Origin: Escherichia coli
GTDB taxonomy: Bacteria > Pseudomonadota > Gammaproteobacteria > Enterobacterales > Enterobacteriaceae
DNA length: 64,000 nucleotides
Reading direction: 5' to 3' (one strand)
NCBI RefSeq assembly: GCF_003991155.1
Contig: NZ_CP031293.1
A program made the position numbers. Shown here piece by piece: positions 33,001-36,000 of this stretch. Numbering within the stretch: the stretch's first letter is position 1; each line of letters begins with the position of its first letter.

Positions 33001-36000
33001 TGGCCAAAAATTGAGGCATTTATTACTTGGTTAAGAGAACAGGTAAGTCAATATGAATGTTATACCTTATAATACATTAAATCATCTGGTTCCTAAATAA
33101 CCTTATTATGCACTGTAAGTGTATGTTGGCTTTATAAATTGCAATTTTTATATGGGAATTGTTTTGTCAATAGTTACGAAAAGGATAAATAAAATAACCA
33201 CATCTTCTTGGCGTCGAATATTGGAGAGCGATAATTTATAGTAAACTAGATTACCAGAGAAAAGATAAGTGGCAATATATTTGCTGGTGGCATTTTTATT
33301 AAATATTATATGTGTTGGTTTGTGACTTTAAAAAAATTAATTTTTAATAAAAAGGTGATTTATTTCTCATTTTGATTAATATTGAGGATCCATTATGATT
33401 ATCAGTTGTATGTCATAAAAATGAGGGGCTAAAAGCCTCAATGAATTGAGGCCTTTAGAACAGGGGTTATATCTTCTTTATATCTAACACATCACTCTCC
33501 CATACTCGTTTAAATCTTGCTGCATTACTGGCTGTATATAATACCGTATGATGTATATTTCTGTGCCCTAAATAATCTTGTATTAGTCTGGTGTCTAACC
33601 CTTGATTAGCTAAAGCATACCCACAACCATGCCTAAGCATGTGAGGATGAATATTAATATTCATATTGTGACTATATTTCTTACACATCTTATACACATA
33701 TTGTCTCGAGATTTTATTTCCTTGACAAGAAAGAAATAAAGAGTCTTCAAAAGGTTTTTTTACTATGTTATCACGTAGTGCTAGCCATTTTTTTAATAAC
33801 AGAACAGTTTCTTTTTGCAGGGGATGTACTGTGGATAATCCATTTTTTAAACGCTTGATATATATTGCTGACTCTGAAAAGTCAATGTCGCTAATCTTTA
33901 GTGCAATAAGCTCGCTTACCCTAAGACCATGTACATATGCCATTTGTAACATGGCTTTATCTCTAATTTCATTTTTTGAACCGTTGATGGCTTCAAAAAA
34001 TAACAACCATTCACTATGAGTAATAAATTTGCGCATAATATTATCGGTTATACTAATTAAGTTAAAAAATAAACTATAAATACCAGAGCCTGGTATTATT
34101 GCTTGTTTTTTATAAGCAAATAATGAGCTGGGGTTTAAATTATGCCACTAAATGGATATTCATCAATACCCCGCCAGAGAGATAGTTGCCCAGCGGGCAT
34201 AGATCATTGTTAGTCAACCAATGAGCATAAATAAGCACAAGGAGGTGTGTATTGCGAATAGTAATTCAATGACATGCTGGTGGTTTTTTTGTGGTGAAAA
34301 TATTTGTACCTTTTTGTTTACGGATGAAAAATAAACAGTCATATTATTTTGGTCAATTGTTGTGTTAGTTTTAACACTCGGTGATGTTTTTTGTTATAGT
34401 GCATTAAATTTTAAATAAAAAAATTCATACATTCATGGATGTAATATATACAAGATACAATGTTAATTTTAGATAAAATATTAATTGCATTGGATACTTT
34501 TTAAATATGCCGATGTTGAGCTTAATTTTATGAGGGAATGCTATTTCGGGTTGTAGGACTTTTTTATAATCATCTTATAGGGCTCTTTATATTTACAGGA
34601 GGGTTTTGAACGATAGTTACATAACGAAGGTTGTTTATATGCGTTTACAAGCGATTAATTAGATTAGGTGAATTTTAATAAATTAATCTATAATCATACA
34701 GCAACTATATGAATTATATTATTGACTAAATGTAATTCTTTCATCATAGTTGACATGGTTATTTTATATAAATAGAGGTGATTTATGCAAAACAGAAAAT
34801 TTTTAACGCATCATGAAATTAATTTACTACTTCAATCTGTAAGACAAAAGAGTTGCTCTTCACGCGATGTTTGCATGATTTTATTGGCTTATTTTCATGG
34901 TCTGCGTGTTAGTGAGCTCTTATCTCTGCAGTTGTCAGATTTAGAACTAACTACAGAAAAAATATATATTCAACGGATAAAAAATGGATTCAGTACAGTC
35001 CATCCACTTCAAAAGGAAGAGGTGATTGCAATAACAAACTGGCTGAATGAAAGGAATTCATTAAATGTTAAACATTTCAATGATAACCCGTGGTTATTTG
35101 TTTCCCGAACAGGAAAACCATTATCGAGACAACGATTTTATAACATAGTTTCTGCTGCGGGTAAAAATGCAGGTTTAAATATTAAAGTTCATCCACATAT
35201 GTTACGCCATGCATGTGGTTATTCACTAGCAGATAATGGTGTGGATACCCGTCTTATTCAGGACTATCTCGGGCATCGTAATATCAGGCATACGGTAATT
35301 TATACTGCTTCTAATTCAATGAGATTTGAAAAAATGTGGGGGAGAGGTGACGCAAAAAAGCAACATTTTGACCCAAAATGTAAACCCAATCTTTGTTTAG
35401 AAATTCTCGTATAGAAAAACATTTTTTTCTATAAAAAACATTAAATTTACTGATTTAGATCAATGTGTGACGTCAATCTACACATAAAGAGGTAGGTTTG
35501 TCTTCTTTTTAATCTTTGGCGTATAAAGCCAAAATGTAAATAATAATCAAAATTATATTCTGAATTAAAATAAATACGCAGGTTTTTTACCTGCGTTTTG
35601 TGCTATTTATAGTTAATTAAATTGATGTTGTCAAAATGGGTCATTTTGTAAACCTGTGCCTCAAGGTTTGTCTCCCCCCGGTGTGCAAAGCAAAAGGAAA
35701 TTGGGAAAGGGGATAACAGGAAATTGATTGCATGGTTTTGATTACGACGACAAAAAATATTTTTATAATTCAAGCAATTAAGAGTATGCGTTGGCGGGGT
35801 TTTTCGTACGTGAAAGTCATCGCTGTGGACGACTATTCTTCTCTGATTCGTGATTTTGGCACATCTTGCTTTCGGGATGAGCAATCGTTGTTGTTACCTG
35901 TATTCCCTGATAATGATTCTACTACCTGTATACGCTCACTGTATTTCATTCACCAATGGCTAAAAAGCCAGCCTGTCAATATTCCGTGCCTGGCATGGGG

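What the first reader, a model, noticed from the sequence alone, without database searches (positions are those of the whole stretch)
35364..35648. Candidate invertible promoter switch bounded by 7-bp inverted repeats between a recombinase gene and a LuxR-autotransporter operon
A perfect inverted repeat TGACCCA (35369-35375) / TGGGTCA (35637-35643) sits inside two related 17-bp palindromic sites (CATTTTGACCCAAAATG and CAAAATGGGTCATTTTG) that bracket about 275 bp of AT-rich DNA. The left site lies within the last codons of the FimB/FimE-like recombinase gene ending at 35414, so inversion would rewrite its C-terminus. The right site is about 90 bp before the LuxR ORF start at 35732, and about 140 bp before the alternative ATG at 35786. 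The bracketed DNA holds a sigma70-like TTGTCT-18-TATAAA (35498-35527) and a hairpin plus T-tract (35576-35600), so in one orientation it could drive, and in the other insulate, the downstream regulator and adhesin genes. This mirrors fimE-fimS-fimA. From memory, a switch named ipuS with short inverted repeats controlling ipuR-upaE was described in a uropathogenic strain; the specific repeats here are my own reading and the ON/OFF state cannot be told from sequence.
Basis: partly seen in the sequence, partly recalled or inferred. Interest (0 to 1): 0.8.

Follow-up and report, generated by a model that had tools for sequence, protein, structure and literature searches.

The report
Known ipuS phase switch, OFF orientation
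This is the already published ipuS invertible promoter switch of E. coli, which turns the UpaE adhesin operon on and off; it sits here in its OFF orientation in a strain other than the one where it was characterised, so it is real but not new.

Summary
TGACCCA (35369-35375) and TGGGTCA (35637-35643) are exact inverted repeats inside two 17-bp near-palindromic sites, with 261 bp of 25% G+C DNA between them.

The element is ipuS, described in UPEC strain CFT073 (Battaglioli 2018, PMC6083910; confirmed by 10.1101/494401).
- The ipuA-ipuR spacer is 317 bp, as published.
- In-silico inversion shortens IpuA from 209 to 198 aa with a terminal K-to-F change, as published.
- The region is collinear with CFT073 (453/461 identical, no indels), and both 17-bp sites are identical.
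- RefSeq annotates ipuB, ipuA and "phase-variable autotransporter adhesin UpaE" here.

Full-length IpuA means the window is in the OFF state, so the state can be read from sequence.

The published start site lies in the ipuA-overlapping end; the best candidate is on the − strand, 35435→35408.

All 236 complete genomes and all 23 metagenome contigs carrying the locus are assembled OFF; none is ON.

Side notes: a near-consensus but polymorphic − strand promoter-like site at 35634→35606, and an IS200 insertion inside ipuS in one strain.

Verdict: already known, low interest.

The parts
33467..34036 (-). ipuB, a Fim-type tyrosine DNA invertase (189 aa)
   Evidence: ORF. It matches NCBIfam NF007370 'tyrosine-type DNA invertase' at 205 bits, just under the 221-bit cut-off. 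RefSeq names it ipuB in a 100%-identical genome. The RHRY residues align with FimB/FimE.
34785..35414 (+). ipuA, a Fim-type tyrosine DNA invertase in its full-length 209-aa form (the OFF-state form)
   Evidence: ORF. NF007370 scores 250.5 bits, above the 221-bit cut-off. RefSeq names it ipuA. R41, H138, R141 and Y173 are invariant with FimB/FimE, and all lie upstream of the breakpoint at codons 195-197.
35364..35380 (.). Left (ipuA-distal) recombination site: a 17-bp near-palindrome, CATTTTGACCCAAAATG, containing the 7-bp core repeat TGACCCA at 35369-35375
   Evidence: (I20). It is identical in CFT073 and in all 28 loci. Its reverse complement matches fimS IRL and flanks at 16 of 19 positions.
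35376..35636 (.). Invertible segment of ipuS: 261 bp, 24.9% G+C, in the OFF orientation
   Evidence: In-silico inversion reproduces the published IpuA truncation. It is collinear with the CFT073 reference.
35408..35435 (-). Best candidate for the published ipuR-upaE promoter: -35 TTTATA (35435→35430), 16-nt spacer, -10 TATACG (35413→35408), predicted start near 35401. In this OFF orientation it points away from ipuR.
   Evidence: Found by my own scan of the ON-form sequence. [quoted passage not shown] The region is invariant in 26 of 28 loci.
35498..35527 (+). It is not the mapped promoter.
   Evidence: The site is present. It faces ipuR in the OFF state, where no 5' RACE product was obtained, and the hairpin lies between it and ipuR.
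35576..35596 (.). G+C-rich hairpin that looks like a terminator on both strands; probably the ipuA terminator and insulator in either orientation
   Evidence: One search finds it on both strands. One search gives -14.8 and -13.0 kcal/mol with z-scores of -4.6 and -4.3. It is identical in CFT073. The function is inferred.
35606..35634 (-). Near-consensus sigma70-like site TTGACA-17-TATAAA at the inner right end. Its -35 overlaps the recombinase-site arm. Its function is unknown.
   Evidence: It is the only site matching at least 11 of 12 positions on either strand of the 64-kb window. The -10 is polymorphic: TATAAA in 9 of 28 loci, TACAAA in 14 (including CFT073) and TGTAAA in 5.
35613..35620 (.). 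Single, asymmetric PacI site (TTAATTAA) inside the element, used in the published orientation assays
   Evidence: The assay is described.
35632..35648 (.). Right (ipuR-proximal) recombination site: a 17-bp near-palindrome, CAAAATGGGTCATTTTG, containing the core repeat TGGGTCA at 35637-35643
   Evidence: (I9). It is identical in CFT073. GTCAAAATGG is shared 10 of 10 with fimS IRR.
35732..36352 (+). ipuR, a LuxR-type helix-turn-helix regulator (206 aa) and the first gene of the switched operon
   Evidence: ORF. Its C-terminal LuxR/FixJ-type HTH gives weak family matches only. RefSeq annotates the same coordinates as a helix-turn-helix regulator. The 317-bp gap after ipuA equals the published spacer.
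36377..44296 (+). upaE, an AIDA-I-type autotransporter adhesin (2639 aa, intact here)
   Evidence: ORF. The autotransporter beta-barrel domain TIGR01414 scores 398 bits. RefSeq names it 'phase-variable autotransporter adhesin UpaE'.

Best explanation
The feature is ipuS, a Fim-type promoter-inversion switch, present here in the OFF orientation in an E. coli strain that is not CFT073.

**How it most likely works**
1. Tyrosine recombinases bind the two 17-bp near-palindromic sites. IpuA and IpuB are encoded next door; FimE, FimX and, weakly, FimB act in trans.
2. They synapse the sites and exchange strands within the identical 7-bp core (TGACCCA / TGGGTCA). This flips the 261-bp segment between them.
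3. In the orientation seen here, the element's promoter lies at the ipuA end on the − strand and points away from ipuR. ipuA is full length (209 aa), and a bidirectional hairpin blocks read-through, so ipuR-upaE is silent.
4. After inversion the promoter sits next to the right repeat and faces ipuR. It then drives ipuR and the UpaE adhesin. ipuA is recoded to a 198-aa form ending in F, which the paper shows is still active.

**Shown versus inferred**
- Shown in CFT073 by others: inversion, the recombinases able to catalyse it, orientation-dependent transcription, and the phenotypes.
- Shown here: sequence identity of both sites, collinearity with CFT073, the coding consequences of inversion, and the OFF state.
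- Inferred: the exact promoter hexamers, the terminator role of the hairpin, and that the switch actually flips in this strain.
For: - The repeats and sites are exact.
- The 317-bp spacer, and the change from 209 to 198 aa with K-to-F on in-silico inversion, match the paper's text and legend.
- The region is collinear with CFT073 at 453 of 461 identical positions with no indels, and both 17-bp sites are identical.
- RefSeq names ipuB, ipuA and the phase-variable adhesin UpaE at the same positions in 100%-identical genomes.
- IpuA passes the NCBIfam DNA-invertase cut-off and keeps the RHRY residues.
- The half-sites resemble those of fimS.
- The PacI site is single and asymmetric, as in the published assay.
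- An independent study confirmed the 7-nt repeats and found roughly 1600-fold ipuR induction after recombinase-driven inversion.
- Both sites are invariant in all 28 loci that span the switch.
- A − strand promoter candidate fits the published description of the mapped start site.
Against: - Inversion has not been shown in this strain.
- None of the 236 complete genomes has the ON arrangement. No metagenome contig has the ON junction, against 23 with the OFF junction. Consensus assemblies report the majority form, so this shows OFF predominance, not inability to invert.
- The paper gives 260 bp, whereas I count 261 bp between the repeats, both here and in CFT073.
- The promoter hexamers could not be checked against the paper's figure.
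Confidence: 0.95

Rival explanations
1. The locus is ipuS by descent but is functionally locked OFF in this lineage. The repeats are retained, yet inversion does not occur or is negligible, so ipuR-upaE is effectively silent or controlled in some other way.
For: All 236 complete genomes and all 23 metagenome contigs carry the OFF arrangement, and none carries ON. One strain has an IS200 inside the segment. Another has frameshifted ipuA, ipuB and upaE. Both show that the locus can decay.
Against: In the window both recombinase genes are intact with RHRY preserved. Both sites are identical to those that invert in CFT073. The CFT073 reference genome is itself assembled OFF yet switches in culture. 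Assemblies report only the majority orientation.
Confidence: 0.04
2. The switch works. The + strand TTGTCT-18-TATAAA (35498-35527) is the operon promoter, and the hairpin is the orientation-dependent insulator.
For: The hexamers are present, matching 4/6 and 5/6. The hairpin is real.
Against: The window is in the OFF state, yet this promoter already faces ipuR. 5' RACE gave a product only from locked-ON cells, with the start site in the ipuA-overlapping end of the element. The hairpin looks like a terminator on both strands, so it does not discriminate between orientations.
Confidence: 0.03
3. The 7-bp inverted repeat is a chance feature of AT-rich intergenic DNA, and nothing inverts here.
For: Fourteen perfect 7-mer inverted-repeat pairs at 200-400 bp spacing occur in the surrounding 600 bp.
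Against: The sites are identical to experimentally mapped breakpoints in CFT073. They share a 17-bp near-palindromic architecture found nowhere else in the window. They are invariant across 28 loci while the interior varies. They resemble fimS half-sites.
Confidence: 0.01

Closest known systems
ipuS of uropathogenic E. coli CFT073 (Battaglioli et al. 2018, mBio, PMC6083910; Russell et al., bioRxiv 10.1101/494401)
   Same: The locus is the same: dsdC-ipuB-ipuA-ipuS-ipuR-upaE. The 7-bp repeats and 17-bp sites are identical, as are the 317-bp spacer, the predicted 11-aa IpuA truncation with K-to-F, the PacI site and the hairpin. The region is collinear and in the same (OFF) orientation as the CFT073 reference.
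   Different: The host lineage differs: flanks are about 98% identical to CFT073, and the window is 100% identical to strains such as 2016C-3878 and MRY15-117. There are 8 substitutions in 461 bp, 5 of them inside the invertible segment. One changes the -10 of a − strand promoter-like site from TACAAA (CFT073) to TATAAA. upaE is an intact 2639-aa ORF here, whereas the CFT073 RefSeq record flags it as frameshifted.
fimS (fimB/fimE-fimS-fimA) of E. coli
   Same: The mechanism and layout are the same. Fim-type tyrosine recombinases are encoded next to a roughly 300-bp AT-rich invertible promoter segment upstream of an adhesin operon. The half-sites are related: GTCAAAATGG is shared with IRR, and 16 of 19 positions match IRL and its flanks. 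The recombinases are 51-54% identical.
   Different: The fimS repeats are 9 bp (TTGGGGCCA) and the element is 314 bp. fimS does not overlap the recombinase coding sequence. Its target is a chaperone-usher fimbrial operon, not a LuxR regulator plus an autotransporter. No strict IHF consensus site was found in ipuS.
hyxS (fimX-hyxS-hyxR) of UPEC
   Same: It is a third Fim-type switch, located next to an accessory recombinase on a genomic island, and it controls a LuxR-type regulator. This is literature knowledge quoted.
   Different: Its inverted repeats are 16 bp, only FimX inverts it, and it has no autotransporter gene downstream. It was not compared at sequence level here.

Membership tests
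ipuS invertible element | A pair of perfect 7-bp inverted repeats bounding a segment of about 260 bp | tested here: met
   TGACCCA at 35369-35375 and TGGGTCA at 35637-35643, with 261 bp between them. The paper gives 7-bp repeats and 260 bp.
ipuS invertible element | Lies between ipuA and ipuR, with a 317-bp spacer and the distal repeat inside the ipuA coding sequence | tested here: met
   The ipuA stop ends at 35414 and the ipuR ATG is at 35732, giving 317 bp. The left repeat lies in ipuA codons 195-197.
ipuS invertible element | Inversion truncates IpuA by 11 aa and replaces the new terminal residue (K to F) | tested here: met
   In-silico inversion changes the C-terminus from ...HFDPKCKPNLCLEILV* (209 aa) to ...HFDPF* (198 aa). 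This matches the Fig. 1C legend.
ipuS invertible element | Sequence identity and collinearity with the characterised CFT073 element | tested here: met
   453 of 461 positions are identical, there are no indels, both 17-bp sites are identical, and the orientation relative to the flanks is the same.
ipuS invertible element | Adjacent Fim-type tyrosine recombinases IpuA and IpuB with catalytic RHRY | tested here: met
   NCBIfam DNA-invertase matches, RefSeq gene names, and invariant R41/H138/R141/Y173 in the alignment with FimB and FimE.
ipuS invertible element | Downstream two-gene operon of ipuR (LuxR-type) and upaE (autotransporter) | tested here: met
   ORFs at 35732-36352 and 36377-44296, HTH and autotransporter beta-barrel matches, and the RefSeq name 'phase-variable autotransporter adhesin UpaE'.
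ipuS invertible element | Promoter inside the element with its start site in the part that overlaps full-length ipuA, each hexamer matching 4 of 6 | tested here: inconclusive
   A fitting candidate exists on the − strand: TTTATA-16-TATACG at 35435→35408, with a second 4/6 plus 4/6 option 4-5 bp away. The paper's figure sequence is not held, so the hexamers cannot be matched exactly.
ipuS invertible element | Half-sites resemble those of fimS | tested here: met
   16 of 19 positions match IRL and its flanks, and 10 of 10 match GTCAAAATGG of IRR.
ipuS invertible element | Physical inversion, with ON and OFF subpopulations, in this strain | not testable with these tools
   Only consensus assemblies are available. 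ON was found in 0 of 236 complete genomes and 0 metagenome contigs, against 23 OFF contigs. Reads or PCR are needed.
fimS proper | 9-bp inverted repeats TTGGGGCCA between fimE and fimA | tested here: not met
   K-12 fimS carries TTGGGGCCA / TGGCCCCAA. The window has a different 7-bp core and different flanking genes.

The most novel reading that the evidence does not exclude
In this lineage, but not in CFT073, the invertible segment may carry a second promoter. TTGACA-17-TATAAA lies on the − strand at 35634→35606, and its -35 overlaps the recombinase-binding arm of the right site. In the OFF state it would fire toward, and antisense to, the 3' end of ipuA. In the ON state it would fire toward ipuR from the far end of the element, upstream of the hairpin. 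The natural -10 polymorphism (TATAAA, TACAAA, TGTAAA) might then tune switch output, recombinase expression or switching bias between E. coli lineages.
Probability: 0.15. Interest if true: 0.35.

Novelty: already known. Interest (0 to 1): 0.1.

Why it matters
ipuS is one of three Fim-type phase switches in extraintestinal E. coli. It controls an adhesin, UpaE, that affects biofilm formation, motility and kidney colonisation. Recognising it here is correct annotation, not discovery.

This check adds four modest points:
- The switch sites are invariant across every allele examined.
- The locus occurs in about 4% of complete E. coli genomes (236 of 5426), as part of a roughly 12.4-kb low-G+C island between dsdC and tRNA-Arg(CCU).
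- Every available assembly is in the OFF orientation.
- Lineages differ at a promoter-like site inside the element.

Tried and rejected
- **ON-orientation assemblies in complete genomes.** I looked for them among 5426 complete E. coli genomes. All 236 carriers show a single same-strand match covering at least 80% of the query, so none is ON.
- **ON junction in metagenomes.** An exact 30-nt ON-junction pattern found nothing. The OFF-junction control found 23 contigs, so the negative reflects OFF predominance in consensus assemblies.
- **Contigs that end inside the segment.** L018 and L020 end within the invertible segment, and I checked whether this signalled inversion heterogeneity. L018 simply stops there. 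L020 diverges after 35489 into 53 nt that match no complete E. coli genome. That is uninformative: possibly a chimera or a non-E. coli relative.
- **IHF site.** A strict consensus search (WATCAANNNNTTR) found nothing in the switch.
- **Rfam and tRNA scans.** They found nothing in the switch; the only hit in the window is tRNA-Arg at 45312-45386.
- **Generic promoter scanner.** It lists only two + strand sites in the element and misses both − strand candidates because it requires a T at the last position of the -10. I therefore scanned the ON-form sequence myself.
I considered and rejected it as the main start. RefSeq and the published 317-bp spacer both use 35732.

Full report
**1. Observation**

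TGACCCA occupies 35369-35375 and its exact reverse complement TGGGTCA occupies 35637-35643. Each lies inside a 17-bp near-palindrome: CATTTTGACCCAAAATG at 35364-35380 and CAAAATGGGTCATTTTG at 35632-35648. There are 261 bp between the cores (275 bp including them), at 24.9% G+C.

The 209-aa recombinase ORF ends at 35414 and the 206-aa LuxR-type ORF starts at 35732. The TTGTCT-18-TATAAA site (35498-35527) and the hairpin (35576-35596) also exist.

A perfect 7-mer inverted repeat is not significant by itself here, because 14 such pairs at 200-400 bp spacing occur in the surrounding 600 bp. The shared 17-bp architecture is special. A degenerate motif covering both sites matches exactly only these two places in 64 kb, although that motif was derived from the sites themselves.

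**2. Identity**

RefSeq annotation of 100%-identical genomes gives the gene order dsdC, ipuB, ipuA, an HTH regulator, and 'phase-variable autotransporter adhesin UpaE'. Battaglioli et al. 2018 (PMC6083910) describe ipuS in CFT073 as follows:
- a 260-bp invertible element bounded by 7-bp inverted repeats;
- the distal repeat lies inside ipuA;
- it sits in a 317-bp ipuA-ipuR spacer;
- the OFF state gives full-length IpuA;
- the ON state removes 11 C-terminal residues, with a K-to-F change of the new last residue.

The window reproduces each of these. The spacer is 35732 - 35414 - 1 = 317 bp. In-silico inversion of 35376-35636 changes the IpuA C-terminus from ...HFDPKCKPNLCLEILV* (209 aa) to ...HFDPF* (198 aa).

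I fetched CFT073 (NC_004431.1) and aligned it. The switch region is collinear, has no indels and is identical at 453 of 461 positions. Both 17-bp sites, the hairpin and the PacI site are identical. A second study confirmed the 7-nt repeats by sequencing both orientations. It also showed that all five Fim recombinases can invert ipuS, with roughly 1600-fold induction of ipuR.

The element is therefore ipuS, and because IpuA is full length the window is in the OFF orientation.

**3. Proteins**

IpuA passes the NCBIfam 'tyrosine-type DNA invertase' cut-off (250.5 against 221 bits). IpuB scores 205 bits, just below it. Aligned with K-12 FimB and FimE (51-54% identity), R41, H138, R141 and Y173 of IpuA are invariant, and all lie upstream of the breakpoint at codons 195-197. 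UpaE has the autotransporter beta-barrel domain, and IpuR has a C-terminal LuxR-type HTH.

**4. Mechanism**

Each end looks like a tyrosine-recombinase core site, with two inverted arms (CATTTTG / CAAAATG) around a short centre. The identical 7-bp core provides the homology needed for strand exchange.

The sites resemble fimS. The right site shares GTCAAAATGG with fimS IRR, and the reverse complement of the left site matches fimS IRL and its flanks at 16 of 19 positions. This agrees with the paper and explains why Fim recombinases act in trans.

The paper places the transcription start inside the part of the element that overlaps full-length ipuA, with -35 and -10 hexamers each matching 4 of 6. 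A RACE product was obtained only from locked-ON cells. In the window this means the left end on the − strand. The best candidate is TTTATA-16-TATACG at 35435→35408, with a predicted start near 35401, and the region is invariant in 26 of 28 loci.

The hairpin looks like a terminator on both strands. I infer that it ends ipuA transcripts and insulates ipuR in either orientation. The hexamer assignment and the terminator role are both inferences.

**5. Population view**

- The locus is present in 236 of 5426 complete E. coli genomes, always on the chromosome.
- All 236 are assembled OFF: each shows one same-strand match and no opposite-strand piece.
- In metagenome contigs the ON junction has 0 exact matches and the OFF junction has 23.
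- Consensus assemblies report the majority orientation. The CFT073 reference is also OFF although it switches in culture. These counts therefore show OFF predominance, not inability to invert.
- Both 17-bp sites are exact in all 28 loci that span the switch, while 14 distinct alleles exist across the region.

**6. Things outside the finding**

- **Near-consensus promoter-like site.** TTGACA-17-TATAAA lies on the − strand at 35634→35606. It is the only site matching at least 11 of 12 positions in the whole window. Its -10 is polymorphic, and CFT073 has TACAAA.
- **IS200 insertion.** Strain TUM1586 has an IS200C inside the invertible segment, next to the hairpin.
- **Decayed locus.** Strain SCU-124 has frameshifted ipuA, ipuB and upaE but keeps both sites.
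- **Island boundaries.** Metagenome contig ends cluster at about 32950-32970 and 45365-45390. This outlines a roughly 12.4-kb island of lower G+C between the dsdC 3' end and tRNA-Arg(CCU).

**7. Verdict**

This is an already known system. Its interest is low, apart from the minor lineage-specific promoter polymorphism.

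Noticed in passing
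window 35606-35634 (− strand): TTGACA-17-TATAAA is the only sigma70-like site matching at least 11 of 12 positions on either strand of the 64-kb window. It sits at the inner right end of ipuS, and its -35 overlaps the recombinase-site arm. The -10 is polymorphic across 28 loci: TATAAA in 9, TACAAA in 14 (including CFT073) and TGTAAA in 5. The ipuS papers I read do not mention it.
   Followed up: partly
L004 2078-2780 (E. coli TUM1586, NZ_CP135712.1); insertion point corresponds to window 35569-35576: An IS200C copy of about 703-711 bp is inserted inside the invertible segment, immediately next to the hairpin. This stretches the spacing between the two sites from 268 to 979 bp, while both recombination sites remain intact.
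   Followed up: partly
L028 (E. coli SCU-124, NZ_CP051706.1) and L001 1-5766 (CFT073): SCU-124 has ipuA, ipuB and upaE all annotated as frameshifted, and a 6-bp shorter switch, yet it keeps both 17-bp sites. The CFT073 RefSeq record flags upaE as frameshifted, whereas the window ORF is an intact 2639 aa.
   Followed up: no
window about 32950-45390: Several metagenome contigs (L009, L010, L014, L015) begin at 32948-32972, inside the dsdC 3' end, and stop at 45364-45388, in tRNA-Arg(CCU) (45312-45386, − strand). This outlines a roughly 12.4-kb accessory island (ipuB, ipuA, ipuR, upaE and a 531-nt hypothetical ORF at 44344-44874). Its G+C is 43.7% against 47.6% for the window, and ipuB, ipuA and ipuR are at 33-38%. 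Only 231-236 of 5426 complete genomes carry it.
   Followed up: partly
window 35373-35384 and 35529-35540: A 12-bp exact direct repeat, CCAAAATGTAAA, puts a third copy of the half-site arm (CAAAATGT) in the middle of the invertible segment. It could be an extra recombinase-binding half-site or simply chance in AT-rich DNA.
   Followed up: no
L020 1725-1777 (metagenome contig OJKD01002105.1): This contig follows ipuA and the left part of ipuS with rising divergence. After window position 35489 it continues for 53 nt that match no complete E. coli genome. It may be an assembly chimera or a divergent relative of the locus.
   Followed up: partly
PMC6083910, Results text versus Fig. 1C legend: The paper's text says the truncated IpuA has a 'K-L substitution', but its figure legend says K-to-F. 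The sequence gives F. The paper gives 260 bp for the element, whereas 261 bp lie between the 7-bp repeats both here and in CFT073.
   Followed up: yes
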